The notes beneath the pieces are model-generated. The model saw nothing but the letters and a program-made list of their open reading frames with translations. It made no database searches and was not told the origin of the DNA. DNA of 64,000 nucleotides from Macrostomum lignano (lineage: Eukaryota), in assembly GCA_002269645.1 (NCBI GenBank), contig NIVC01000939.1:1-64000 (forward strand). The letters are read 5' to 3'. A program made the position numbers and the translations under genes. Shown in pieces: positions 1-15,500 of the stretch. Each line of letters starts with the position of its first letter. Within the stretch, counting starts at the first letter, position 1.

Positions 1-1
1 C

Positions 2-359
2 AGCCAGCTAGCACTAAAGAAAGGTGGTGAAGCCATGTGCCACGCTGCATTTGTACCTGAGAATAATTCATTCGTGAGAGAGTACTTGCACTACCTGAAA
101 AGCTGTCAGTCAGCCAGCCCTAGCAACTCGGTTCCGTGGTCCCTACCAGTTGTTCTCCAACGGCAACACAGCTTTCGCATTCGATCTCACGCCTGAGGGA
201 GCGGCCCTGTGGTACGGACAGAAGGAGGGCAATTTGCGGCTGGAGATTCGCTTCCGACAGGCCCTGGAGGAGCCTGTATCTCTGATTGTTATGTGCCTGT
301 ATGACTCACTGATTGAGGTCACGAAGCACAGGGAGATTCTGCTAGATTTTCCATCCTAG
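2..359 (+). CDS. Major capsid protein, C-terminal part (Polinton/adintovirus double jelly-roll type); one frameshift near 138-140
   Basis: FVREYLHYL...F.NGNTAFAFDLTPE...W...KEGNLRLEIRF..AL..PVSLIV..YDSLIEV...REILLDF resembles the Polinton MCP C-terminus; 5' part is outside the window. Confidence 0.8.
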
Positions 360-382
360 GAGTACGCTGGCGCAACGCTAAT

Positions 383-905
383 ATGGATGCTTTTCAACTG
401 CTTAACTGGCTAAAAGCTTTTTGCCACAAATAACTGTTTAATTATTGTCTTGAATTCAATAAATAAAACATCTTATGCTTTAAACTTTATTCAGCGAGCA
501 ACTCTCAAAAGAAATTTATCTCGATGTAAGTTTATTTTCTTTCTGCTTCAGTACAGCTCATCCTTCGGTCACTGGGTGGTTTGTTATGCTGATAAGGAGA
601 ATTCCATAGAACTCTTTAACTCTCTGGGCTGGGACTCCAGCACTTTAGAGATCATTCACAGAGCACTGAAATCCTTTTGGTATTCTCCATTCTACTTACG
701 TAGCAATGTGAATCGAATTCAGAGCTGTGACTCTGCTAAATGCGGTTTGTTCTGTCTCTTGTTTGCCTATCAAAAGTTTCGTTTCAAGCGCTCGTTTGAG
801 TGGGTTCTGCGGCACCTCCATGCAAATCAGCAGAGCCACTTGAATGAAAGAATTCTGCAAAGGTTTGAGAGTTGCTTAAGAAAAAGAAATTTAATTAGAC
901 TTTAA
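383..905 (+). CDS. Adenain/Ulp1-like cysteine maturation protease; N-terminus frameshifted
   Basis: GHWVVCY (His), ELFNSLG (usual FDS reads FNS), IQS.DS.KCGLFC (Gln, Cys); located between MCP and ATPase. Confidence 0.8.
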
Positions 906-930
906 AAATCAAGATTTAGCTCAACAGGCG

Positions 931-1582
931 ATGGAAAACACGTGAGCGGATAAACTGTTATGATGTGCGCCTGCGACAGGGAAGCTGCATGATTGTCAGC
1001 GGGCCTACAAATGCAGGAAAGACAACCTTCGTGAAACATCTGATACAATACAAGGATGTCATGTTTGATGTGAAGCCTGGGAGAGTTCTGTGGTACTACG
1101 GGATTTCACAAGCAGCACACTCTGAGCTCAGCAGTCTCGGCGTGCACCTGCAGCAGGGATTTCCCAGCAGTATCGAGACCGCACTGAGACCAATGACCTG
1201 GTTGTATTTGATGACCTGATTGAAGAAACTTCCAATTCTGCTGCAATGCGAAATGTTTTCACTGGAATTGCCCATCATTTGCCCTGCTTTCTGGTTATGC
1301 TCACCCAAAATGTATTTTTTAAAGGGAAGGAGTTGCGAACAATGAGTCTGAATGCGATGTACTTTGTGATCATGAAGAACCCCAGAGACCAGCTGCAGAT
1401 TGCAGCGCTGGGCAGGCAGTGCTTTGCTGAGAAGCCCGGCTTTCTGCTGTCAGTGTTCAAGCACGTGACATCGCACGGCAGGGGAGCCTACCTGCTCCTG
1501 GATTTTCACCCTTCCACCCCTGATGAGCTGCGGGTCCGGGCTCGAATCCTGCCCAATCAGCGACCCACCTGTTTACACTTAA
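931..1582 (+). CDS. DNA packaging ATPase (FtsK/HerA, A32-like), split by frameshifts
   Basis: Walker A GPTNAGKT (965-1219 frame); Walker B DLVVFDDL restored across a frameshift near 1187; TQN, SLNA.Y.V.MKNPRD.LQI, GAYLLLDFHP in the 1246 frame; likely end PVYT* near 1582. Confidence 0.85.
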
Positions 1583-1629
1583 GAATAACAGCCGAGATTT
1601 TGCCATTTTTTCTATATTCTGCAACACAA

Positions 1630-1944
1630 ATGATAATGGAAACTTTGACTCACATGAAAGTTTGTTTGATGTTCTCGCGTCACCGAAATATTCCATCAGC
1701 TTTAAACGTCTGTTGATCAGAGCGGGTCCAAAAGCCGTACGTGAATTTCTCATTGAGGCCTGCTACAACCTATTGCAAAACACTCTGTCGTTCTCACTCA
1801 CAAAAGGCAGCGCTGGTGAAGCAAAAGCAAATAATCCGCAAAATTTCTACACATAGAAGAACTGCGGATCTGCTAAATACGGGTTTTATCAAAATTCTCT
1901 ACATTCTAATAAAGCTAGTGAAGAAAAAGAAGCAAAATGAATAA
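1630..1944 (+). CDS. Small basic conserved Polinton/adintovirus protein, frameshifted
   Basis: LIEACYNLLQN.L.(S)..QKAALVKQKQIIRKIS pattern recalled from the small core-like protein of such elements; spread over ORFs 1662-1856 and 1741-1944. Confidence 0.5.
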
Positions 1945-2659
1945 GTTCTCAGAAATGGTTCTGATCCCCAAGTCAGAGTACGACATGCTCACACAGAATT
2001 TGAAGCCAGTCGAGTCTGAAATGGACACTGCTGTGAGATATGCGCAGAGGAAATGCAATGATATTTTGCTTGCCGAGGATTGCCCAGACGATGTGAAAGC
2101 TGCCATGTACCATGATGCGATGAAGAGTTTGCTGGTCAAGCGCAAGCGGACTGGAAAGGATGGTGCGGTACCTGCGAGTGATGCAAAGATGCTGAAAACA
2201 GATATTGCACCAAGCAGCTGGGGGGAAAAGATCACCCAATCCGTGCCGCAGAAGTTTAAAGCGAGAGCCCGCAGTCTATGGGCCATCCTATCTGGCAATC
2301 CCTCTCTGATTCAGGTGTCCGAAAATGGCGAGGCGCAAATTTCTGGGAAGACAATACCCTCCTCAAACATCCTGGATTTGTTTCACAGTGCGGTGAGGGA
2401 TTCGAAATGTGCCAGCGAGCCGGTAGGCTGGAGTGAGTTTGTCTCATTGCTTCAAGACAAAAAGCTTAACATCCCAGCTTCGGCTATAGGAAAGTCAGTA
2501 AGGCAGCTAATTTCTAAACCGGCTGTTTCTCCAGAGGCCACCCCTGCACATCATACAGTTAAGGGATTCGGGAGTGGGAGAGCCTGGCTACACCTGAGCA
2601 GGAAAAAAAACTATTTAAGAAGGGGAACTGAGTCGGCTTCCCGACATCTTGCGTCTTGA
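1937..2659 (+). CDS. Conserved uncharacterised Polinton/adintovirus protein (240 aa)
   Basis: MVLIP start; VPQKFKARARSL...I.V...GE..I.G..IPSSNILDL...VR...P.GW.EF...L...NIP.SAIG pattern recalled from Polinton ORFs. Confidence 0.6.
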   Translation: MNKFSEMVLIPKSEYDMLTQNLKPVESEMDTAVRYAQRKCNDILLAEDCPDDVKAAMYHDAMKSLLVKRKRTGKDGAVPASDAKMLKTDIAPSSWGEKITQSVPQKFKARARSLWAILSGNPSLIQVSENGEAQISGKTIPSSNILDLFHSAVRDSKCASEPVGWSEFVSLLQDKKLNIPASAIGKSVRQLISKPAVSPEATPAHHTVKGFGSGRAWLHLSRKKNYLRRGTESASRHLAS

Positions 2660-2671
2660 AACCATCCGATC

Positions 2672-3130
2672 ATGAACTATATTGACTTCCAAGGCTTCCC
2701 ACGCGAGAGATCGAGCAGAGATTTCGTTGTGAAGGAGCTGGCCATTGCCCAAGTCCGGGCTGGCAGTTACCATATCACTCATCACGTGTACGCCTCTCCG
2801 TTCTCATGGGACAGAATCTCACCTGAGATGCAAGTACATTACAGAAAGCTCTCAAAGAATTTGCATCATTTCAAGTGGACAGATGGATCCCGACCGTACA
2901 TGCATTTGGCTAATGACATTCTAAACATTGCTTACGGTCCCACCTGGACAAGCGGGGTGAAAAAGTCCATCTTTCTGACTGAGCTGCTTGGCAGACAGGT
3001 GTACAACCTAGAGGATCTGGGATCACCTTTGATTCAAGCATCTGATACTGGTTGTGCAGTGAAAAATGTATTACTGTACTACAACTGGCTGAAACCGAAG
3101 TTCTGTATCAACTTAAGAAGCGAGGTGTGC
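2672..3130 (+). CDS. Putative DEDD/DnaQ-like exonuclease-fold protein of Polinton-like elements (ORF reads on to 3517)
   Basis: IDFQGF...FVVKELA...H...SP..W...HHFKW.DG...Y...K..FL..L...VYNLEDLG.P...CAVKNV.LY.NWL; the recognisable family pattern ends near 3090. Confidence 0.5.
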
Positions 3131-3185
3131 CCGCACCACTCAAAAGCTCGCAAAGACAGCACCACTGACAGAAAGGACTCTCTAA

Positions 3186-3749
3186 ATGAGTACACCTGCG
3201 ACAGCCCTGCGAGTGACCAATCTGGTCGGCGGCGTGGATCTGAGACTTGCTGGAGACAGGGGTGCCCAGTTGCCTCTGCGGGAACTGGCTCTCAGCATGG
3301 CTCATGTCATCTATCGCCCCGTCTGGCCCCGAGTGCTTATCAAGAGGATGCGGAGTCCCAGAGTGACTCTATTGCTCTATCCGACTGGACAACTGAGTAT
3401 CTGTGGCGCCCGGAGCTACTCGGCCTCAGTCAGGGCCGCTCGTCGCTTCGTGGCTATGCTGCATCGCAGAGTGCCTGCTCAACTGCTGCCTCATCAAACT
3501 GTGCATGTGCGGATTAAAACTATTACTGCGCATGGGAAAATTGACTTGTGCAGAGCACTTCCCCTCGCTAATCTTGTAAACACTTTACCAAGTGCTCAAT
3601 ATGAGCCAGAATCATTTTCTGCTTTGATCTGCAAACTAAGCTTCTGCAAATGCCTGCTTTTTCACAATGGCTCATTCGTTCTCAGTGGTGCAAAAACAAT
3701 GAGCATGCTAATTTCCGACTTTTCCTTGCTTGTCCGTTTTCTGTGCTAA
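3186..3749 (+). CDS. TATA-box-binding protein (TBP)-like, full two-repeat core, 187 aa, intact
   Basis: Aligns by eye with the TBP core: TNLVGGVDL~QNIVSTVNL, YRPVWPRVL~YNPKRFAAV, RSPRVTLLLYPTGQLSICGARS~[22 protein letters not shown], AARRF~AARKY, YEPESFSAL~YEPELFPGL, LLFHNGSFVLSGAK~LIFVSGKVVLTGAK. Confidence 0.88.
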   Translation: MSTPATALRVTNLVGGVDLRLAGDRGAQLPLRELALSMAHVIYRPVWPRVLIKRMRSPRVTLLLYPTGQLSICGARSYSASVRAARRFVAMLHRRVPAQLLPHQTVHVRIKTITAHGKIDLCRALPLANLVNTLPSAQYEPESFSALICKLSFCKCLLFHNGSFVLSGAKTMSMLISDFSLLVRFLC

Positions 3750-3770
3750 TAATAACCATATGTTTCAACA

Positions 3771-3780
3771 ATTAAATAAA
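3771..3780 (+). terminator. Overlapping polyadenylation signals ATTAAA/AATAAA ending the plus-strand viral cassette
   Basis: ATTAAATAAA about 20 nt after the TBP-like stop codon. Confidence 0.45.
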
Positions 3781-4464
3781 AAGACGACAGCTGAACAAAA
3801 ATATAATAATCTTGCATGCATATACCACGTATTAAGATGCGTGCATTTTAATCAATATACCTGAAAATCAGACTTCGATCGACTTTTTCTTTATTTTCAT
3901 AACTGAAATCGCAATATTAGTTTGAGTATAGAAAATTTAATCAGACCACAACCAACTCAAGAAAAAAAGCACACCCATCACTCAGATTATGCACTGCTAA
4001 GACAAAAAAACGAACAAGAACTAGCAGAAATGAAAAAGGAAGCCAATATTTTTCAGATAATCATTGGATAATGGTTACAAAAAATATGAGTAGCAAAGCT
4101 AGCAAAGATAAAAAAGGACAGTAACTCAGTTCATTCAATTGTGCAAAAATTCAAGGATAGTAAAAAAGAGGAAAGCCAGACCAATATGCCGCAAATTATT
4201 CCAACATGGCTTTCACAAGTTCGTATTGAAATAAATCTGGAACAACTCAACTCGAAAATGTTACGCTCAGTTAGTTGCTTAGAGACTACAAATATGTAAC
4301 TAACTGAATTGGCTCTATTCGTTCCAGCATTGTCATTATCATCATCATCCATCATTATCATCATCATCATCATTCAGATTAATTAAACCACTGAAACAAT
4401 TCATGGAGTACATAAGTAAAAGTCAATAAATTTCAACGCCAAGGTTACACAGATGTGCAAAGCA

Positions 4465-7400
4465 TCACTCTAAGCAGTCCGCTGTCCTTTTCGGACTACC
4501 CCTGATTAACAGCTGAAAGTGGCCGAACGGAAGACTTGAATTCGAGCCAGTCCACGCTCGCTTGTCCTCCCAGATACTGAGAGCGAGCTTACGTTGCTCA
4601 ATGGTGAAAACGCGATGTTTCTCACTTCCAATTCGACGAACAGTGAGCGACAGCTTTGAAGCCCCCTTGAAAATCTTGACGTAGTCGTCGTGGGAGACTT
4701 CATTCTTCAGCACGCTTCGTTGGATGCCTTTTGCTTTTGCTTTGCATGCCGCCGAGCTTTCAGCGAGGAAAGAATAGAGCTTGGGCCTTAGCAGCACCCA
4801 CTCAATCTGTTGCAGTCCACCAGCTTCATCTTTAATGCAGCCTAGCTTGGCCTTTAGCCGATTCGAGAAGAGAGGATGATTAGTGAAAAATTGGAGGTGT
4901 CCAAGAGGCCTTCGGCATGCAGGATTGGCAGCACTTCTCTCTGCAAACTAAGGTTCTCTAAGCTCAAAAACAACGAGTCTGTATCGCCACCGCAAACTCG
5001 AACTCTTGCTCCATCACGGAATTCTAGCATGGGTTTTATTTTGTCATAGTAAAGTCGATACATGATGATCTTGGAGCGATCTAGAACACACTGCCCCATG
5101 AAAATTGGCGATCAAGAGTTACTTCGCGCTTTTGAAGCTCAAAGATGCTGAGTGACGGCGTAATGATTGTGAATGATGCGACATTTGGTTGAGAAGAAAC
5201 AGTCTTGGCTTTTTTCTTGTCACTGCACACTCTGATGTCCCGCCGCTTGCGCACGTTCTCCATTGTTTTGCCAAACAGGGAGTTATTTTTCAGTTTATAG
5301 AAATCCTTCTCGAAATCATTTTTCGCCATAGAGCGCTTCTCGCTATTCATCTTAATGTAGTCCGCGAAGACAGGTTCTTGCCTGAATTCGATCATCCTGT
5401 GGAGCCCATGCAACTTCATTCCGTGCGATAGATAGAATCGGAGAGCAGACGAGTGCAGTACATAGGAAAACTTGTTGTGGCATGTGAGCATTAATTTTTG
5501 TACTCCACGGTAGCGCGCAACGGTAGGATTCTCAGTCGTGTTCGCGTCGGGCTGCTGCTGCTGATGATGCTGAGAATGATCATTGTCATGTTGAAGCAGT
5601 ACCCATAATTCTCGCATGTACTGCGGAAATTCTTCAAAATTCGGACACCTTTTCTCTGGGGCGAATGGAAGATCCTCCGTTGCCGTGTGGATTTCGGCTG
5701 GGTAGAGCAAATCCGCTTCGACAAGGTAGCCGATTGGAGCGTCATCATCCAGGGAAAGAAAGCGGCACTCGGACCATGAGCAGAGCTCCTCTTGACTGAG
5801 CCAGCGAAAGCCACCAACAGGTAGGGGCATTGTGAGCGCATGACCGTAAAGATTATTAGCATCAACAGCCAGTAAACTCCTACCTGCTGGTTCATTATCA
5901 TCATCGCTACTTTCGCTCTGGACATGATGTACATTGACAAAAGACATTCCACCCGAATTCCTTTTTCAAACATTTTATACATCTCGAGGTCAGTTAGCAG
6001 TTCGATCTTGACTTGAGAAGACTTTAGTGCAGAAGCGAATGATAGGCCTGGAGTTGACACAAAATGCACCGGATCTAGCTTGTCTTCCTGCAAACTCAGC
6101 CTTCGAAACCCTCAAAGATATCTGCTAGTTGCCTGATGTCCAGCTCCAAGTAGCAGAGCATGTAATCGCGCAATGTTGTAGATTCGAATTCAGTCCAGGC
6201 CTTCTGCGCATGCCGATACTCCGCCTCGGTACAGTGGCTGTTGGTGAGTCGGTTAAAAAAGCTTTCTACTTTTGGTAGTTGGCGATCATCAAGCACATTC
6301 AAATTCGAGAGATAATCATAAGGGAAAACTCCCTTACTAAACAGTACATCGCTTGAAAGATTTGGATACTTTGATCGCATCGCATTAGTGATGGGACAGT
6401 TGTCCTCCGGCAAGTTCTTAATAAGTTGAGATAGACTGCTGTGTAGGAATTGCAGTGAGTCGATGAATTGTAGCGTGAAAAACAGGGGCTTTTTTACGCC
6501 ATCTTTCTCATACTCATCAATCTGGAACTCGACCCTCATGGAGAGGTACGACTCGGCAGTTTGGGGGATGACGCTCACCCTCCAACCAGTCATGTCACCC
6601 AGCGCAGTTGAGAAAATCAAATGCAGGTCATATCCGCGAAGATTGTGGAAAACTATTGGCAAAAATCGCCGTTTTAGCCGAGCAAGCTTGTTACACGAAG
6701 CGCAGGCAGCACCCTTGTATTCACCGCTGAGGTGGTCGTGATCCCAGTGCTTGTCAGAAGATGAAATAAACACTGCATTGCATAAATAGCACTGTGGGGC
6801 ATCTTGAAAGCTGCGCCTGTTGTCATCTCTGTTTCTGTCAGCAATCTGATGACTAAACTCGGTATTCCAACCATAAACTTCACGAGCAAGACGTTCGAGT
6901 GAGGCCAAAAACTGTTTCACGACAGAATTCGGATTGGGTCCGCTGCAGAGGAAAACATCCTCACTCGGCCTCAGAATTTTGCTGCTCATACCCTCTCTTG
7001 GAATAACAATGTAGCCAGCAGCTACAGGTACATGCTCAGTTAACTTGGTGACAGTAACTTCTCTTTCAGACTCCACTGGTTCACGTGGGGTGTTCAGAGC
7101 TTCAAAATCTGCGTAGACAACAAATGGGGGACTGATTGTCTTTTCCCAAGCCATGAACTGCATTGTGTTGCTACTTGCATCAGGCATGCGCTCCATAATG
7201 GCTGGTTTCAGTTGAGGATTGCAGCTGTCTCGATGCTGCTCCAACTCTTCCTGGGATCGAAACGGAGAAATGCACTTCTCACACCATTTGCGATTCCTCA
7301 GACCTTTTTTGCTGTTCAGGAGCCGGTCCAGGTTCGAAACTGCACACCAGTGTCCAGTCCCACAATTCTCATCACCACCACCATCATCATCAGCATCATC

Positions 7401-8218
7401 GGTGCTGGAGTTGCGAAGCAAGAGTAGAGGAATAACCTTGCGAGAGGCACAAATCCCAGGAAGAGGCTGGCGAATGACATAGGCCTCATCATCTTCCCAG
7501 CTAAAAACTGTGAAACAGATTTCGGAATTATTTTCCTCTATAACGTCTAAATCGGAAATTGCGACTGGTAGTGCGATGCCGCTCAGATCGATTTCATCCA
7601 ACCATCTGCTGTAAGTTGTAGTCGATGGCAAGACTTCATCACACCAGGATCTCTGATGTGCAGGTAAGCGAGACAGGCAAACAGAAAGCAATTGTTTCCA
7701 TCGCTCGGTGGGTTGATTATGGCCTTCTTAACCGCCAGCTGATTGGGCAAAGTAAAATTCGCGCATCGTCCACGATAGTAGCGAATGCGATCAGTGAGGG
7801 CAGAGCACAGATCAAAATAGTTGATTTGCTCAACTATCCAACCGCTCCCATTTGAATTGTAGGCATCAATCTTGCGTTCCAACTCAGAAAACTGCTGCAA
7901 CCACCACAATTCAAAATCTCTTAGATCAGAGAGAAGCTCAAGACCGCATGCGATCCACTTATCTTCTGCATTGACTACCGCAGCTTCCTTGATTCTCACC
8001 ATTCTGATGTTGAACTTGAGCTGCGCTCGAATAGAATTATTCTCGGATGAATCGAATCTCATCTCAACAGCCTGTAGCACTGCAAACTTCGTTGATGATA
8101 AAAAATGAAATGGCTCGAGATCTCTTGATGCTGGAGTGAAGCGTCTGACCTGCAGCGTGTCATCATGCGCACTAGCGTGAATAGCCGAGCTGAATTGAAT
8201 GCCTGCATGAATTAGCAT
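4465..8218 (-). CDS. polB: Protein-primed family B DNA polymerase with N-terminal extension, C2H2-like finger and endonuclease-VII-like domain; split by 5 single-base frameshifts
   Basis: GSGW..LP..L..KKAIIN; ExoI YADFE; C..C...DHDHLSGEYKGAAC..CN; ExoII FHNLRGYD; KGVFPYDY; motif A DANNLYG; motif B KLKNNSLFGKTMEN; motif C GDTDS; C-terminal PKLYS/KAKGI/EDKR/LPFGH. Confidence 0.93.
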
Positions 8219-8303
8219 GTTGTTGGATGTACGCGTTTCACTCGACAGTTAAAATTTATAAATCATATTCCTAATTCCACCTCATTATGGTGCGGGAATT
8301 GGT

Positions 8304-8706
8304 TAATCGGAATCAGTGAATCGGGAATCGGCGAATCGGGAATCGGTGAATCGCTAATCAGTGAATCAGGAATCGGGAATCAGTGAATCGGTGAATCGGT
8401 GAATCGGGAATCAGTGAATCGGTGAATCGGGAATCAGTGAATCGGTGAATCGGGAATCAGTGAATCGGTGAATCGGTGAATCGGTGAATCGGGAATCGGT
8501 GAATCCGTGAATCGGGAATCGGTGAATCGCTAATCAGTGAATCAGGAATCGGGAATCAGTGAATCGGTGAATCGGTGAATCGGTGAATCGGTGAATCGGG
8601 AATCAGTGAATCGGTGAATCGGGAATCAGTGAATCTGTGAATCGGTGAATCGGGAATCGGTGAATCCGTTAATCGGGAATCGGTGAATCGGCGAATCAGG
8701 AATCGG
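8304..8706. repeat. Tandem array of 7-8 bp units (GTGAATCG / GGAATCG) upstream of polB
   Basis: Directly visible, about 400 bp. Confidence 0.9.
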
Positions 8707-9492
8707 GTTTTATGACTACTTTTTCTTGTACTTATAGAGGGAAGAGTCTACTTTACTGGCTTTACTAATCACATTGGATTGACTCACTGGTTGGTTCGAT
8801 TTCGATAGCAAAATTGGTAGACTCAAGCGGCCGATCACTTGCTGATGATGATGATGAAGTGTCTCTCGAAGAAGCCATCTCGGTTCGGTTGATGACACTG
8901 CTTAGAGCATTTTCGATGAGAATTAGATGAGGAAATTTGCTGAAATACATATTTGTGAAATTATTTTTTCTTGCAAAAGTAAATTCAAATCCCTAATTTG
9001 TGGATATACGCTCGTATTAAGTGTACATATTTTCGAAAGTTGTACTTCGGGTCTTGTCGTTACGTGTCAAATTTCGGGGTCTAATAAAGGTTCTAATAAA
9101 AGGGTTTAATAAAAGGGTCTTATAAAACGAATTCTAAAAATATTTCAAAATAACTCAAAGCTGCAAACTTTTCCAAAATTCAGCGCTTCATTGCGCTTTA
9201 AAATTTATATTTTAAAAATGCAATGATACGCTACATTATTAGAAGCACAAGTTAAAGAAGGAGATTGCAAACCCAAACAGAATCAAACCCAATCTGCATT
9301 CACACCCAAGCACAGCTTGATCAACGCGCACTGCCTGCATAAATATGAACTTTAAAAATAGCAATAAGATGTTGAAAAGAAAAATAAATATTATTCACTT
9401 TTGCAATATACGGATAATCATCTCGCAATTTAATTCAACACAGAATGTTTGCTAATTTAATATTTAACGACTGGTACATTAGAATTATTAGT

Positions 9493-10493
9493 TTAGAATT
9501 GAGAATTGCTCAGGCGAATACGGAAAGCCCCTCCCAAGTCAATCCAATATTCACCCGTAACACTGCTGGGCAGAACCAGCTGGATGCAGAGAGGTGCTGG
9601 CTGCTGCACTTCATTAGCGGCCGCAGGCTGAACCTCAGTCGGTGGTGGCGGTGGTGCAGGCGCAGGGCCTGAGTCCATATCGCGAATCAGGTCAGACAGG
9701 CTGACTTCGGCCGCAGGCTGAACCTCAGTCGGTGGTGGTGGTGGTGGAGGCGCAGGGCCTGAGTCCATATCGCGAATCAGGTCAGACAGGCTGACTTCGG
9801 CCGCAGGCTGAACCTCAGTCGGTGGTGGTGGTGGTGGAGGCACAGGGCCTGAGTCCATATCGCGAATCACGTCGGACAGGCTGACTTCTGCCAGCATTCT
9901 GGCACGCTCCATATTTTTTCCGGGAACAGGGATTGCACGCCGCTGCTGCTGCTGTTGCATTTCTTGCTGCTCCTGTGCTTCAGGCTCACCATCGAGGTTC
10001 TCGAAGAAAGCGGTGTCCAGCTCATTCAGCTCGAAGTCAGGGGTGCCACCTCCATCAGCAGCATCAAGCAGGGGAGCTCCGACATCACCGTCGAGTAGAG
10101 CAGCAGAAGCAGCAGCAGGCTGGGCGTTGGGCTGGTCACCAGTGTTCGTTACTCGGCCGCATAAGCTCGTGATAACTTGACTCAAAGTGCTCACCGGCTC
10201 TCGAATGCGTTCTGCCGCCCTGTTGCGTTCCTCTTGACGTGCAACTTCCAGAGCAGTAGTGCGTGCCTGCTCGCGGTCTTCAGCAGAGCTCCAATTAACA
10301 GTCGAATGATTTTTATGCCTTTTGATTTGGCCTCTAACGGTGAAGAGCTCAACGGACTGGCATTCATGGCATAGTAGCCATCGGTGACACTGCAGCCTTC
10401 ATTCGCTACATGGTGCTTTAGTCCACCGAGCATACTAATATTGCAGGCGACACACACCTCATGAACGTAGGATGGGCACCGAGAATGGCTCAT
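9493..10493 (-). CDS. Unknown viral protein (~333 aa if ORFs 10191-10493 and 9493-10194 are joined); Cys/His N-terminus, acidic and Gln segments, three 30-aa Pro-rich repeats
   Basis: The two ORFs overlap by GTGA and join if one G is restored. The 90-bp repeat encodes EVSLSDLIRDMDSGPAPPPPPPPTEVQPAA. Confidence 0.55.
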
Positions 10494-11072
10494 GGTTTAA
10501 AATTTAATCAAGGGGTTTTTTGTGAAAATTTGAAATTTCGAAGTCCGTTTAAATCTCAACAAAATATATTTTAATGGCTCAGTAGAATTTTTCAGTCCTT
10601 ATATTCAAATCACCAGGCAATATCGCCTATATGTACACATACAGATATGTTTACACGTTACATATGTGTATGCACTAATTATTTTCTTACCGTTATTGAG
10701 CAATAATAATAATAAAACTGATAACATTCCCCCCGTCCCGTGCATCAGTTAGTTTTAAAGACCTCCACCCCAGACCTGCACCCCACTTCCCCGCGGCCAA
10801 ATCAGCAGTATCAAGAAAAACAATAACAAGGCAATAAACGGCGCTTTGCGAGCTCACTTTCACAACAAATTCAGTCCAGTTTGCGAGACTCGTACTAAAG
10901 TGCGGAGGAACTCATGAACATAGGCCTATGTATTCCCACTGCCAACAAAGTTTAAATATTGTGGAGATCGGAAGCCAGGTTCGCCCAATTTTCAATTAAC
11001 TATGGTTAATGTACGCTAGAGGAGTTTTTTACTATTTTAGAGTCAGTTTTGGGCTTCCCAGGAACTTATGCT

Positions 11073-11608
11073 GCTTTCCCCTGCGGCAGAGTCCACCAAT
11101 CCATTTACATAGAGCTCTATTCGGCTTTTTTCATTGAAGATCGAGTAGTAGGAAAATGAAAAGCGTCAAATTTTTCTATTCTATTTTTGTCTAATTAGAT
11201 TAATTACTTCTCAAAGGATAAAAACATTTTCATTTAAAATCTAGAAACTAGTATTCTTTTGAAATGTTTGAAATGTTATTTCAAATTCGTCCTTTCGTTT
11301 CTATAGAAATACGATAAAAGATCGAGAAAATTTCTCGAACCGAATTCCAGAATCGGATCGCGGTTTTGGAACCGACTATGAAAACGGAACAGACAATATG
11401 AAAAGCTTCGAACCGATTCTGGTCCTGGAATCGGTCATATGAAAAGCCCGTATATTTCGCTCTCCGACCCCCCCCCCCATGGAAATTCCGTGGCTTTCCC
11501 TGCGGCAGAGTCCACCAATGCATTTACATAGGCGCTATGTTTACACACATAGGCCCGTGGTTTTCCCACGGAAATTCCTGCGGCAGAGTCCACATTTCCC
11601 CTACTACT
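11073..11608. repeat. Putative right terminal inverted repeat region with internal direct repeats
   Basis: GCTTTCCC(C)TGCGGCAGAGTCCACCAAT.CATTTACATAG at 11073-11112 and 11493-11531, partial copy at 11575-11597; terminal CTACTACT at 11601-11608. The partner TIR is not in the window. Confidence 0.6.
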
Positions 11609-11631
11609 CTTGTGCTATATTTGCATTTCAG

Positions 11632-12581
11632 AGGCTCTTTTGAACGAGTTGTCTTTAAAATCTTCGAAACGGTGTCCGGCCAGGACTCCTGCGGTGACGC
11701 TTCGCAGGGGAAAAATCTGGCATTCTTCGCGTTGCTTGACACGACCTGGAGCTGCATCTCGAGCACGCCAGTGCTGCACGCCACCTTCACCCATCCGAAA
11801 TCTTTATACAGCTTTAATGGAAGCACCGGCGTGTCTAGCATGGCTCTGTGGACAAAGACTTACCTGAACACTGACAACATGCCGACGACCACAGACGAGA
11901 GCTGCATCGAAGCCAACATACTAAAACTGAACACAACGATTGTTACTGCTAACAACTATTCAAAGATGTCGGCGAGCCCGTGTCCCGACAGCACTGACCA
12001 GGCCGAGCCCTCCTGGCTGTCCGGCGCCGGCAGCTGCGATCCCGGCTGGATGCAGATGGGCGAATTCTGCTTCCAGATGACCGCAATGGCGACCACCTAC
12101 GATGAAGCCCGGCTGTTCTGCAACCACTTCAATGCGACCCTGGCGGCGCCTCAGAACTACTCGCAAGTCAGGAGTTTCTACACAGCCTGGACAAGATTTT
12201 ACAGTTTCAACAGAGACCAGCAGCAGACTTCGAGCTATAACGGCCCAGGCTTTTGGGTTGGCGTGGCTGACAGAACTTCGACAAATCAGCTGGACACCGC
12301 GAGCGGATCCGCTGTCAACTACAGCTCGCTAATCTGCGGAATTCCGGTGGAGAAGCTCGGCATTCGCAAATTTGACAGCTCAGTTAACTGCCTCGAGGTT
12401 TTTACAAATACTTACAATGGAGACAAAGAAGCTGATTTTTTGAAAACTTCAAACTGCTATGATTACTCTCGGTACTTTTCGACTGTACCTTCAATGTTAT
12501 ATATAGATCAATATGCCTATCGATTGCAAGACTGCAAAAAGCAGCTAGCCGGAGTATTCTGCGAGAAGCCAATTAATAAAG
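11632..12581 (+). CDS. Paralog 1 large exon: end of discoidin-like region plus C-type-lectin-like domain
   Basis: [15 protein letters not shown]...[17 protein letters not shown]...FWVGV...NCLEV...C...FCEK; homologous to 51290-52245. Confidence 0.85.
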
Positions 12582-15500
12582 GTAATTACGGACAGCGGTT
12601 TCAGAAGAGATGTTTATTCGCCTATGCCTCTTATAAATTGCAGTTCTGCACGGCTGCTACAAGCTGCACTGGTCGCTCATTCCTGACATGCAACAGCCGG
12701 AACTCGACCCCCAGCTGCACCTGCGTCAGTGCTTGGCTACCTGTAGCTGGAAAACCGCGCAGCTGGCGGCCTTGAGTCCCTACCGGTGCTACTGCATCGA
12801 TTTCTCTGAGCTGATGAACCCCGCCATCGCCGTGCAGCTTCCCAGCGAGACTTGTTCGCGCACATGCAGCGGCAATCGGTACCAGACCTGCGGCGGCAGC
12901 TCGACTTTAGTTGACACGGACATTGTGTCCGTCTATCGAGTGGGTGAGCTGATCTCCGAGTCATTGCGGATCCTGCTCGTCCTGCAATTTTAGCATTTTA
13001 TTGTAATTTTCTTTTACCCTCTACGGCAAGTTATTGATAGCATGGGCCTGTGAGGCCGTCTCCCGAGACACTAAAACTTCAGCTCAAATTTTTCGAGTTG
13101 AAGGCGAGGGTTTTTTCCTTCGATGTATTTCAAATGTATGTTACACTGTTACAGGGTGATCGACCTTAGATGTATTTCAAATGTATGTTACACCGTTACA
13201 GGGTGTTCGACCTTAGATGTATTTCAAATGTATGTTACACCGTTACAGGGTGTTCGACCTTAGATGTATTTCAAATGTATGTTACACCGTTACAGGGTGT
13301 TCGACCTTAGATGTATTTCAAATGTATGTTACACTGTTACAGGGTGTTCGATCTTAGATGTATTTCAAATGTATGTTACACTGTTACAGGGTGATCGACC
13401 TTAGATGTATTTCAAATGTATGTTACACCGTTACAGGGTGTTCGACCTTAGATGTATTTCAAATGTATGTTACACTGTTACAGGGTGTTCGATCTTAGAT
13501 GTATTTCAAATGTATGTTACACTGTTACAGGGTGTTCGACCTTAGATGTATTTCAAATGTATGTTACACTGTTACAGGGTGTTCGATCTTAGATGTATTT
13601 CAAATGTATGTTACACTGTTACAGGGTGTTCGACCTTAGATGTATTTCAAATGTATGTTACACTGTTACAGGGTGTTCGACCTTAGATGTATTTCAAATG
13701 TATGTTACACCGTTACAGGGTGTTCGACCTTAGATGTATTTCAAATGTATGTTACACTGTTACAGGGTGTTCGACCTTAGATGTATTTCAAATGCTACAC
13801 ATTTATGAAATTCTGCCCTGCACAAATATGATTTTCAAGTTCCCCTTTCCTGCTAATGAGCTCACCAATTCTATTAATTCACCCGCTGGCTCTTCCAGAC
13901 CCGGCTTATCAAGACATTTCCGCCAGCTCATGCATGGAGATTTTCCTCAAGGGTTTCTACCTGTCCGGATACTATCTGATCAACGGCCAACATCAGTATT
14001 GCTACCTGGCGGGTGAGTGAGAAGGGACTATTAGATTTTGCGATTGTAATACCGTAATACCTGCTTTGATAACTTCGGTATTTCCGATTAAAAGTTCAGA
14101 CTCGGGATTTCATAAACAATTGATGAATCCCCTATATAACTTTTCTTCGATCAAGGAGCTGTCGCTTCCTGCTGTGCAGGGCAGCCAGAATTAATAAACT
14201 GCTCGCCTTCTTTAGGAGCTGTCAAAAGCTTTCTTGGCGCTTGTTCCTTGCTTTTTGCCCCTTGTGAAATCCGCGGTTTCCTTCTTGCTTCTTGTATTTT
14301 TGTATTCCGGTGTCTGGCATTTGCAGTGCGGACCACCGAGTGCGCATTTGCAACATTTGCCTCGCTAGCGGCGTCACCCACACTGCGGATGCACTGGGCT
14401 CTCCTCTTCTAAGCTGGACTGGCCATTTTCGAGACTGCCTTAGAATTTTACACAGATACCTCTAATCTGCTGAGAGTTAGTGGTCATTCCGAGCTAAGGG
14501 TTAGCACCAGACAGCTAACCCTTGGAGATGTCTGATCTCTGTGGAAGATTGTAGTTGGTTCACATGTGTTGGAACCCTTGGCTTGGATGTCTTTTATGTC
14601 AGATTTTTGCGTTTGACATGGCATGGCATGATTTAGACTAGGGTTTTCTAGTCTACTGCAGGCGTACCTGATTGAGTTTTGGTTACTGTCTTGGGGGATT
14701 GGCTGGTTGCGGGTGACGGATGATGAGTCATGCTGCTTTCTAAAACCGTTGGTCAGTTGACTTTCTGGTTAATGCATTGCAACTAACATGGGAATTCTAT
14801 TTTTAGATTCTTTTATTTTAAAGCGCATGCTCACCGTTCAAAAATAAGTAGAATACTCCACACTCTACACAATAGGCTGTTGCCTTCGCGCTTTTTTGCT
14901 CATTTAGTCGTAAATCTGTCAAAAGAAACTTAAATTTACGCTCATAATTTTGCACCGAAGTTCTTGATGGCTTCTCTTGTTTAATTAGCCTGAGAAAAGC
15001 GGCTCAGTTGAGAAGTTTATGAGGCACTTTAAGCCATTTTTTGAGACACCGGAGTCGTTAATAAATTTAAAAATACTTCAAGATAAATGCAAAAAGTCTG
15101 CTTAAGATGGTTTAGCGTCTAAATTTTGTGCGACAAGCGTCTCTACTCGTGATGTCTGTATCTGGCGGTTTACCTGCTCAAAAGCGGCTTAAGTGTAACA
15201 TTTATCGCAAAAAACTTAAAGTGTCACTGGCGTAATGTTGCTATACTCGTATCGTTGCGATGTAGTAACTCCATTGGTTTGAAATGCTTGGACACTAAAA
15301 GTACAGTATGAGGTAGAAGCTCTTTCAACAACGAACTCAAGTTGACGGATGTCCATAGGGCTTTATGAAGGCTCTATGATGAGTAGCTTGAAAGAAAGCT
15401 CAGGCCATATTTTACCTTGGATCCTTATAAGATCCTTATATTTGAGTACCAATACATTGTATTGAGAATCAACGAAATTCTACTGAGTCTGCCGAGAACT

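What the first reader, a model, noticed from the sequence alone, without database searches (positions are those of the whole stretch)
3186..3749. A Polinton/adintovirus-like element encodes its own full-length, divergent TBP
Seen: an intact, intronless 187-aa ORF ends the capsid-protease-ATPase cassette and aligns over both halves of the TBP saddle. All four DNA-intercalating Phe positions remain aromatic (W in RPVWP, Y in LLYPTG, F in PESF, F in LLFHNG). The first Asn (TNLV), the basic AARRF helix and the TFIIB-binding YEPE stirrup are kept, while the second Asn (QNMV) has become KTIT. Established: canonical Polinton genes are pPolB, RVE integrase, ATPase, protease and two capsid proteins; viral TBPs are known from large nucleocytoviruses (e.g. 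mimiviruses, ASFV); host TBP cores are far more conserved than this ORF; TRF2/TBPL1 loses most of the Phe residues. I am not aware of TBP being described in Polintons. Inference: a long-resident viral TBP that may redirect or compete with host Pol II/III initiation, possibly with altered TATA specificity.
Basis: partly seen in the sequence, partly recalled or inferred. Interest (0 to 1): 0.92.

Follow-up and report, generated by a model that had tools for sequence, protein, structure and literature searches.

The report
Flatworm Polinton's own TATA-binding protein
A virus-like jumping element of a flatworm carries its own strongly altered copy of the core transcription factor TBP, and its integrase and particle-assembly genes share an unusual TATA-like box, which suggests that the element switches on its own late genes.

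Summary
Confirmed, with one correction. Window 3186-3749 is an intact 187-aa TBP (Pfam 2e-21; model pLDDT 92, TM about 0.8 to solved TBPs), 28% identical to host TBP. It lies in a Polinton; protein hits name Macrostomum lignano. The first intercalating Phe aligns to Pro, not Trp. The gene is a fixed part of two Polinton families whose TBPs are 38% identical: 122 of 136 listed ATPase loci have a TBP downstream. dN/dS is 0.12-0.39. New here: a box, YWTAAGAA (mostly CTTAAGAA), occurs 5-8 times per structural arm, on the sense strand only (about 0.6 expected). It usually lies 35-75 nt before integrase, penton-like, ATPase, other arm genes and the family-A TBP. PC4-like and polymerase genes mostly have ordinary TATA boxes. 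Best reading (0.6, inferred): the viral TBP reads this box to drive late transcription, like herpesvirus TBP mimics. Binding and expression are not shown, and host TBP could tolerate the box. Capsid and polymerase arms are swapped at a junction inside the TBP gene. In print I found only a 'TBP' label in one MELD-virus figure legend. This scan noted Polinton TBPs in two other genomes (unchecked).

The parts
3186..3749 (+). Polinton-encoded TBP, 187 aa, both saddle repeats. Against yeast numbering: N69 kept, F99->P, F116->Y, V122->S, T124->C, N159->T, V161->T, E186/E188 kept, F190 kept, P191->S, F207 kept (yeast numbers partly recalled, partly)
3112..3119 (+). CTTAAGAA box ending 66 nt before the TBP start; lies inside the upstream ORF
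   Evidence: (present in 20 of 20 loci L001-L020, 19 of them near-identical copies)
2612..2621 (+). TATTTAAGAA box 50 nt before the upstream ORF (TATATAAGAA in three copies of the other arm type): TATA-like and box-like at once
2672..3517 (+). ORF with a conserved N-terminal domain of about 145 aa (DFQGF...VKELA; DEDD-like is my recalled label; Atlas: unnamed arthropod clusters 0.96, Maelstrom 0.86 as a lead only). Its tail overlaps the first 110 TBP codons in another frame
1937..2659 (+). Conserved 240-aa ORF, no family match
1578..1585 (+). CTTAAGAA box before a short conserved ORF (start 39-45 nt downstream in other copies)
920..1575 (+). P-loop packaging-type ATPase, in two frames in this assembly
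875..882 (+). CTTAAGAA box before the ATPase (35-51 nt before the start in other copies)
383..905 (+). Adenain-type cysteine protease, frame broken near its start in this assembly
   Evidence: PF00770 E 1e-4
1..359 (+). 3' end of the putative major capsid gene; the element is cut here by the contig start
   Evidence: capsid identity not confirmed by a tool
3775..3780 (+). AATAAA after the TBP stop
4465..8218 (-). Protein-primed DNA polymerase B with endonuclease-VII-like insert, in several frames in this assembly; TATAAAT about 40 nt before its start
9493..10496 (-). Gene with Cys-rich N-terminus and proline-rich repeats, in two frames; no family match
11475..11608 (.). Right terminal inverted repeat, ending ...CTACTACT

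Best explanation
The gene is a working viral TBP that serves as the element's late-gene switch. Shown: it is a selected core gene of two Polinton families, and the integrase, penton-like, ATPase and other structural-arm genes share a conserved sense-strand box YWTAAGAA at TATA-like distance from their starts, while PC4-like and polymerase genes mostly carry ordinary TATA boxes. Inferred: host TBP/TFIID first transcribes the early genes and the TBP (family B: TATAAAAG before the TBP; family A: through the TATWTAAG promoter of the overlapping upstream ORF). The viral TBP then binds CTTAAGAA (read as TATA positions 1-8) through a remodelled, more polar saddle. It recruits host TFIIB through the kept E-P-E stirrup, hence Pol II, and turns on integrase and virion-assembly genes. 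In family A it would also amplify itself through the box before its own start.
For: Fold and stirrup. Purifying selection in the TBP frame: dN/dS 0.12-0.39 in 21 of 21 subfamily pairs; in the overlap pN/pS is 0.12-0.21 in the TBP frame against 2.6-3.9 in the upstream frame. Fixed position: 122 of 136 listed ATPase loci have a TBP 0.8-7 kb downstream. Box: 7, 7, 7, 8, 7 and 5 sense copies and 0 antisense in six arms, against 0.39-0.76 expected; TAAGAA, TTAAGAA and CTTAAGAA are the top 6-, 7- and 8-mers in an unbiased ranking over three distant arms; CTTAAGAA 5 against 0.49 and 0.43, 0 of 200 shuffles each; TAAGAA kept at 7 of 7 sites between arms 74% identical, against 21% background. Canonical TATA and no box before PC4-like genes in 4 of 5 copies and before family-B TBP; TATA-like sites before pPolB (window) and the right-end gene (3 copies). 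Pro191, said to exclude bases other than T at position 1 (PMC1636458, passages), is Ser, Thr or Asn here, and the box mostly starts with C. Precedent for the logic: KSHV ORF24 reads TATTWAA late promoters with a polar interface (10.1101/2025.08.25.672222, passages).
Against: No binding, transcription-start or timing data. By the co-crystal rules summarised in PMC13566119 (passages) ordinary TBP can structurally accept C1, T2 and G6, and PMC1636458 says wild-type TBP has room for G at position 6, so the box does not strictly need a new TBP and my V122->S/G6 pairing is unproven. The family-A TBP sits behind the box itself, which fits a strict early-to-late order less well. One of five PC4-like genes lacked a clear TATA. 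No box was seen within 110 nt of the protease or 240-aa ORF starts, nor before the putative MCP start of the window-type arm; two arm sites lie about 105-140 nt from the next start. The first Phe is Pro, so half of the DNA-kinking pair is changed. In the whole 64-kb window CTTAAGAA is not enriched (3 against 3.08); the signal is local and strand-specific.
Confidence: 0.6

Rival explanations
1. The box is a promoter read by something else (host TBP/TRF2 or another host factor, or a helper virus's polymerase; TAAG as a baculovirus-type late start motif is recalled), and the viral TBP has another job, such as titrating host TFIIB or other TBP partners or damping host transcription.
For: The box is structurally acceptable to ordinary TBP. 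The TFIIB stirrup is invariant while DNA-face residues changed. Family A's TBP is very basic (24 K+R against 7 D+E).
Against: Most boxes lie 28-75 nt before the next start, as for a TATA box. The DNA-face changes (N->T, V->T/S, F->Y, V->S/T, T->C) are shared across families 38% identical, which is conserved change, not decay. A pure decoy would not need both repeats kept under selection. No helper virus is known to me for this host.
Confidence: 0.25
2. The viral TBP binds the box but represses: it occupies structural-gene promoters non-productively and keeps integrated copies quiet (a latency factor).
For: The family-A TBP has the box before its own start, a layout that also suits negative feedback. 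Family B has lost the basic helix-2 surface, recalled as a contact for TFIIA and other partners.
Against: The TFIIB-binding acidic stirrup is kept in all family A and B rows aligned, which a repressor would not need. Known viral TBP mimics activate.
Confidence: 0.1
3. A captured host TBP retrocopy riding along without function.
For: The gene is intronless, but the host TBP and TRF2 cores are also uninterrupted in this genome.
Against: 28% identity to host TBP; AU test rejects a clade with it; dN/dS far below 1 with saturated synonymous sites in the 3' half; 91 of 150 listed matches are full length without a stop (my count).
Confidence: 0.02

Closest known systems
Cellular TBP (Pfam PF00352; human 1cdw, yeast 1ytb, archaeal 1ais)
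   Same: Two-repeat saddle over the whole length (TM 0.75-0.85); first Asn, three of four aromatic positions and the acidic TFIIB stirrup are kept.
   Different: Only 24-30% identical; no N-terminal extension; first Phe is Pro, second Asn is Thr, Pro191 is Ser; encoded by a mobile element in many copies.
Beta/gamma-herpesvirus TBP mimics (KSHV ORF24; 10.1101/2025.08.25.672222, passages read)
   Same: Proposed logic: a virus-encoded TBP fold with a more polar DNA face reads a variant TATA (TATTWAA there, YWTAAGAA here) on late genes using host Pol II.
   Different: ORF24 is a multi-domain protein that binds Pol II itself within a six-protein viral complex. This is a bare 187-aa TBP core with a kept TFIIB stirrup and no such complex evident. 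No homology beyond the fold was tested.
Polintons / Mavericks / adintoviruses (Starrett et al. 2021, PMC8502044; sections 3.1, 3.2, 3.4 and passages read)
   Same: pPolB of pfam03175 type, rve integrase, ATPase, adenain, TIRs, 6-bp target duplication, 16.8-17.1 kb; exchange of polymerase and virion modules is known (Jeong et al. passages; 10.64898/2026.10.13.758929 passages).
   Different: TBP is not among the adintovirus genes described in sections 3.1-3.2. It appears only as a label in the Fig. 5 legend for MELD viruses and related elements (figure not visible to me). A fixed, selected TBP with a matching promoter box and a module junction inside it is not described there.
TBP-like proteins of large nucleocytoplasmic DNA viruses (e.g. 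Heterosigma akashiwo virus, Terrestrivirus, asfarvirus B263R homologue)
   Same: Virus-encoded TBP fold.
   Different: 7-20% identity and weaker structural scores than cellular TBP. Those viruses bring their own RNA polymerase (recalled); no RNA polymerase gene was seen in these elements. They were not in my tree.

Membership tests
TBP family (PF00352) | Two TBP repeats forming the saddle fold | tested here: met
TBP family (PF00352) | Four intercalating Phe | tested here: not met
   P, Y, F, F; W45 is one residue off
TBP family (PF00352) | Two central Asn | tested here: not met
   first kept, second is Thr
TBP family (PF00352) | Acidic C-terminal stirrup for TFIIB | tested here: met
   YEPE in both families; sequence only, binding untested
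TBP family (PF00352) | Binds and bends a TATA-type element | not testable with these tools
   needs EMSA/SELEX
TRF2/TBPL1 | Groups with TRF2 and has lost most Phe positions | tested here: not met
   24% identity; p-AU 0.04 against a joint clade; keeps F3 and F4 where host TRF2 has H and F
Polinton/Maverick | Protein-primed PolB | tested here: met
   PF03175
Polinton/Maverick | rve integrase | tested here: met
   PF00665 plus chromo in family A and B copies; outside the window, which starts inside the element; linked by 99% DNA identity to copy C1321
Polinton/Maverick | Packaging ATPase and adenain protease | tested here: met
   PF00770; ATPase by P-loop matches only, below Pfam cut-offs
Polinton/Maverick | Double and single jelly-roll capsid proteins | tested here: inconclusive
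   ORFs of 427 and 269 aa in the expected slots; no Pfam or NCBIfam match; for the 427-aa ORF no PDB match and a single-sequence model at pLDDT 31; labels rest on position, size and recall
Polinton/Maverick | Terminal inverted repeats, AGT termini, 6-bp target-site duplication, 15-20 kb | tested here: met
   two copies checked: TIRs 413 and 155 bp, AGTAGT ends, 6-bp duplications (one with a 4-nt offset), 16.8 and 17.1 kb; window has the right TIR
Herpesvirus TBP mimic (ORF24 class) | N-terminal Pol II-binding domain and extra C-terminal DNA-binding domain | tested here: not met
   187-aa core only; works-like claim only

The most novel reading that the evidence does not exclude
Animal Polintons form a so far undescribed class of small nuclear DNA viruses with an autonomous early-to-late transcription cascade built on a stand-alone, re-specified TBP and a co-evolved TATA variant, a natural orthogonal TBP-promoter pair. 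The flatworm TBPs are one branch of a wider unnamed family of compact (about 170-aa) viral TBPs seen in metagenomes, and swapping of the TBP's C-terminal repeat with the polymerase arm tunes it.
Probability: 0.4. Interest if true: 0.9.

Novelty: new variant of a known kind. Interest (0 to 1): 0.76.

Why it matters
How Polintons time their gene expression, and whether they can run an infection cycle without a helper, is open. A selected viral TBP plus a defined 8-bp box gives a direct, cheap test (binding, reporters, 5' mapping, knock-down) in a tractable laboratory animal. If true, it is a second, much simpler invention of the herpesvirus late-promoter trick. It would also be a natural altered-specificity TBP that shows how one of the most conserved eukaryotic proteins can be re-specified.

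Tried and rejected
Looking for the gene outside this genome's elements. Viral-contig scans with the window protein (0 of 10 pattern hits related), with a mixed alignment (7 of 61, distant TBPs at 26-32%, five archaea-like in the tree, no Polinton genes nearby), with the compact-TBP alignment (0 of 19), with P0131 (0 of 10) and with a DNA pattern (0) gave no Polinton context. A metagenome pattern scan gave 8 loci, 0 of 8 TBP. So relatives P0002-P0004, P0009, P0020, P0242, P0083 and the compact TBPs have no known context. Expression: no RNA holder on record. Contigs of four runs guessed to be RNA cover parts of the TBP and also most other bins (30, 23, 29 and 26 of 30 bins), show no joints, and cannot separate RNA from DNA; this counts neither for nor against. 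The capsid model failed (pLDDT 31). Considered and set aside: the box as a poly(A) signal (AATAAA is present after the TBP and the box lies mid-ORF at 3112) or as a splice acceptor (AAG acceptors are rare, recalled; no joints). The tail of the upstream ORF as a selected protein was rejected. Patikoglou et al. 1999 was not held; I rely on two papers that summarise it. No complex prediction was run: a TBP-TFIIB pair would pass by likeness to solved structures. Earlier-note look-ups by sequence and by place were empty.

Full report
1. Observation. Window 3186-3749 (+) is an uninterrupted 187-codon ORF followed by AATAAA. It matches Pfam TBP in two stretches, E 2.4e-21, and 35 PDB sequences, all TBP or TBP fusions. 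An AlphaFold model from a 13-row alignment has pLDDT 91.7 and superposes on archaeal, plant, yeast and human TBP with TM 0.75-0.85; viral TBP-like models score lower. Gap-free comparison with host TBP and a 162-row alignment put Pro46, not Trp45, in the first Phe column, so the aromatic set is P/Y/F/F. The second Asn is Thr, Val161 is Thr, Val122 is Ser, Thr124 is Cys and Pro191 is Ser (yeast numbers, partly recalled). The E-P-E stirrup is intact.

2. The element. The window starts at a contig end inside the element. On + lie the end of a putative capsid gene, an adenain protease, a P-loop ATPase, a short ORF, a 240-aa ORF, an ORF with a DEDD-like motif (recalled label) and the TBP. On - lie pPolB with an endonuclease-VII-like insert and a Cys-rich gene, and the right TIR is at 11475-11608. 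Other copies add, on the left, a PC4-domain gene, an rve integrase with chromo domain and two ORFs in the penton and MCP slots. The capsid labels could not be confirmed by a tool. Two copies checked have TIRs, AGTAGT ends and 6-bp duplications and measure 16.8 and 17.1 kb. Protein hits at 78-99% are named Macrostomum lignano.

3. A fixed gene of two families. The own-genome search gave 152 matches (150 of 237 candidates scored); by my count 91 of the 150 listed are full length without a stop, in groups at 97-100, 89, 83 and 76-81% identity. A match at 38% (C110) proved to be a second Polinton family with a different layout, but with its TBP again directly after the DEDD-like ORF; it has about 37 loci (split pieces merged by me). 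After merging pieces, 122 of 136 listed ATPase loci have a TBP 0.8-7 kb downstream on the same strand (121 at 1.3-2.3 kb) and 14 do not. Host TBP and TRF2 each occur three times, so counts overstate the haploid number.

4. Selection and origin. Among seven family-A subfamily representatives, Nei-Gojobori dN/dS over codons 1-170 is 0.12-0.39 in all 21 pairs. In the overlap with the upstream ORF the constraint is on the TBP frame (pN/pS 0.12-0.21 against 2.6-3.9, six pairs). Identity to host TBP is 28% and to TRF2 24%. In a 51-row LG+C20 tree (13 long or redundant rows of 64 left out) families A and B and the unplaced proteins P0002-4, P0009, P0020 and P0083 form one branch (99/95). That branch joins seven compact metagenomic TBPs and P0065 (96/89), apart from host TBP and TRF2. 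Clades with host TBP or TRF2 are rejected at p-AU 0.005 and 0.04. Branches are long, there is no root and no giant-virus TBP was included, so the donor is unresolved. Outside this genome the closest relatives are 67-73% (Logan), 51% (JGI) and 60-63% to family B (ENA), all without context.

5. Mosaic. Copies sharing a capsid arm (94-96% DNA identity) carry pPolB arms only about 65% alike, and identity collapses within the TBP gene around codons 105-120. The TBP is the last homologous block before the polymerase arm, so arm exchange resolves inside it (inferred); both halves stay under selection. Polymerase and capsid module swapping as such is known.

6. The promoter box. An earlier scan note (e1-7879962) reported a shared box in another genome's TBP-bearing Polinton; I tested the idea here. 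Upstream regions show CTTAAGAA or variants (TTTAAGAA, TATAAGAA, CATAAGAA) mostly 35-75 nt before the integrase, penton-like, ATPase, short-ORF, DEDD-like and TBP starts, and about 100 nt before the putative MCP in one arm type and in family B. Six arms hold 7, 7, 7, 8, 7 and 5 sense copies, no antisense copy, against 0.39-0.76 expected; beyond the TBP there is 1 in five stretches. TAAGAA, TTAAGAA and CTTAAGAA rank first among all 6-, 7- and 8-mers over three distant arms. Five of the six arms belong to two related types, so the independent samples are about three. TAAGAA is kept at 7 of 7 sites between arms 74% identical, against 21% background, although several sites lie inside coding sequence. 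In the window all three CTTAAGAA lie on + in the arm (875, 1578, 3112), though the whole-window count is not above chance. PC4-like genes have a canonical TATA and no box in 4 of 5 copies (the fifth has neither), family-B TBP has TATAAAAG, and TATA-like sites precede pPolB in the window and the right-end gene in three copies. No box was seen close to the protease or 240-aa ORF starts.

7. Mechanism. Shown: fold, selection, fixed position, box distribution. Inferred: host TBP starts the early genes and the viral TBP; the viral TBP binds the box, recruits TFIIB and Pol II, and drives integrase and assembly genes (0.6). In favour, Pro191 is reported to exclude non-T at position 1 (PMC1636458, passages); it is Ser, Thr or Asn here and the box mostly begins with C. 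KSHV ORF24 uses the same logic on TATTWAA with a polar interface. Against, ordinary TBP tolerates C1, T2 and G6 structurally (PMC13566119, passages), the family-A TBP lies behind the box itself, and nothing here shows binding or expression: no RNA run is on record and contigs cannot decide. Rivals: box read by host or helper factors with the TBP as decoy or antagonist (0.25); repressor (0.1); passenger (0.02).

8. Literature. Ten searches of the held library (listings seen). Those pairing Polinton, Maverick or adintovirus with TBP or TATA-binding terms listed no paper whose title or abstract start concerns a Polinton TBP; I did not open most of them, and of 242, 175 and 43 hits only 40, 15 and 25 were listed. 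None of the listed papers mentions Macrostomum. The one precedent is Starrett et al. 2021 (PMC8502044: sections 3.1, 3.2, 3.4 and passages; preprint passages), whose Fig. [quoted passage not shown] The figure is not held, and the held supplement, which is cut, has no TBP hit; unseen supplements may bear on this. Word searches in four Polinton papers (PMC11131425, 10.1101/2023.08.22.554363, 10.64898/2026.06.19.733378, 10.64898/2026.10.13.758929; main-text passages) found no TATA, TBP or PC4. Repbase and subscription journals were not searchable. Two unchecked notes of this scan describe TBP-bearing Polintons in other genomes; they are leads, not support.

9. Verdict. Real, functional by evolutionary evidence, and a new variant of a known kind: a Polinton with its own TBP as a core gene and a matching candidate late-promoter box. 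Interest 0.76. The boldest reading not excluded, an autonomous TBP-based cascade spread across animal Polintons, has probability 0.4 and interest 0.9.

Noticed in passing
window 3186-3749 against L024/L025, L036/L037, L028/L029, L038/L039, L026/L027, L030/L031: Module junction inside the TBP gene. Copies with the same capsid arm are 87-100% identical in DNA up to codon 105, then 28-87% from codon 120 on. The capsid arm is 94-96% identical while the pPolB arm is about 65%. Each subfamily's TBP is thus a chimera: N-repeat with the capsid arm, C-repeat with the polymerase arm, both selected.
   Followed up: yes
window 2672-3517: The upstream ORF stays open over the first 110 TBP codons (129 in family B) in all 8 copies checked. 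Synonymous shuffles give P 0.026, 0.017 and 0.0014, though its amino acids are not conserved. Unexplained; it may serve translation of a two-gene mRNA.
   Followed up: partly
L021:2561-3325, L028:1335-2081, L038:2470-3132, L033:1094-1771 (-): Both families also encode a PC4-domain protein (PF02229, E 1e-7 to 8e-5), a second general-transcription-like or ssDNA-binding factor, mostly behind a canonical TATA box.
   Followed up: partly
P0022, P0030, P0093, P0107, P0111, P0116, P0131, P0162-P0174, P0176: An unnamed family of compact 151-191-aa TBPs with the second Asn changed (Thr in all but one), on contigs of 1-22 kb (one 89 kb). Seven were in the tree and grouped with the Polinton TBPs (96/89 together with P0065; long branches). 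Context unknown.
   Followed up: partly
window 1-8250: Contigs of four public runs differ from the window copy by single-base indels in several genes that are broken here, so some breaks may be assembly errors or copy variation.
   Followed up: no
G000 C70, C1301, C713; C350, C3513, C3090: Host TBP and TRF2 each appear three times with uninterrupted cores, so the assembly is redundant and element counts overstate the haploid number.
   Followed up: no
window 11608-12775: The element's right end runs directly into an open frame that looks like a host lectin/WSC-type exon (label recalled, not scanned); the insertion may interrupt that gene.
   Followed up: no
window 8300-8710: Tandem array of short GAATCGG(T/G)-type units between the pPolB promoter and the right-end gene.
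   Followed up: no
L030:2-3843, L021:2-2335, L033:2268-4163: Long unrelated ORFs, retroelement-like by eye, lie next to or inside several Polinton copies.
   Followed up: no
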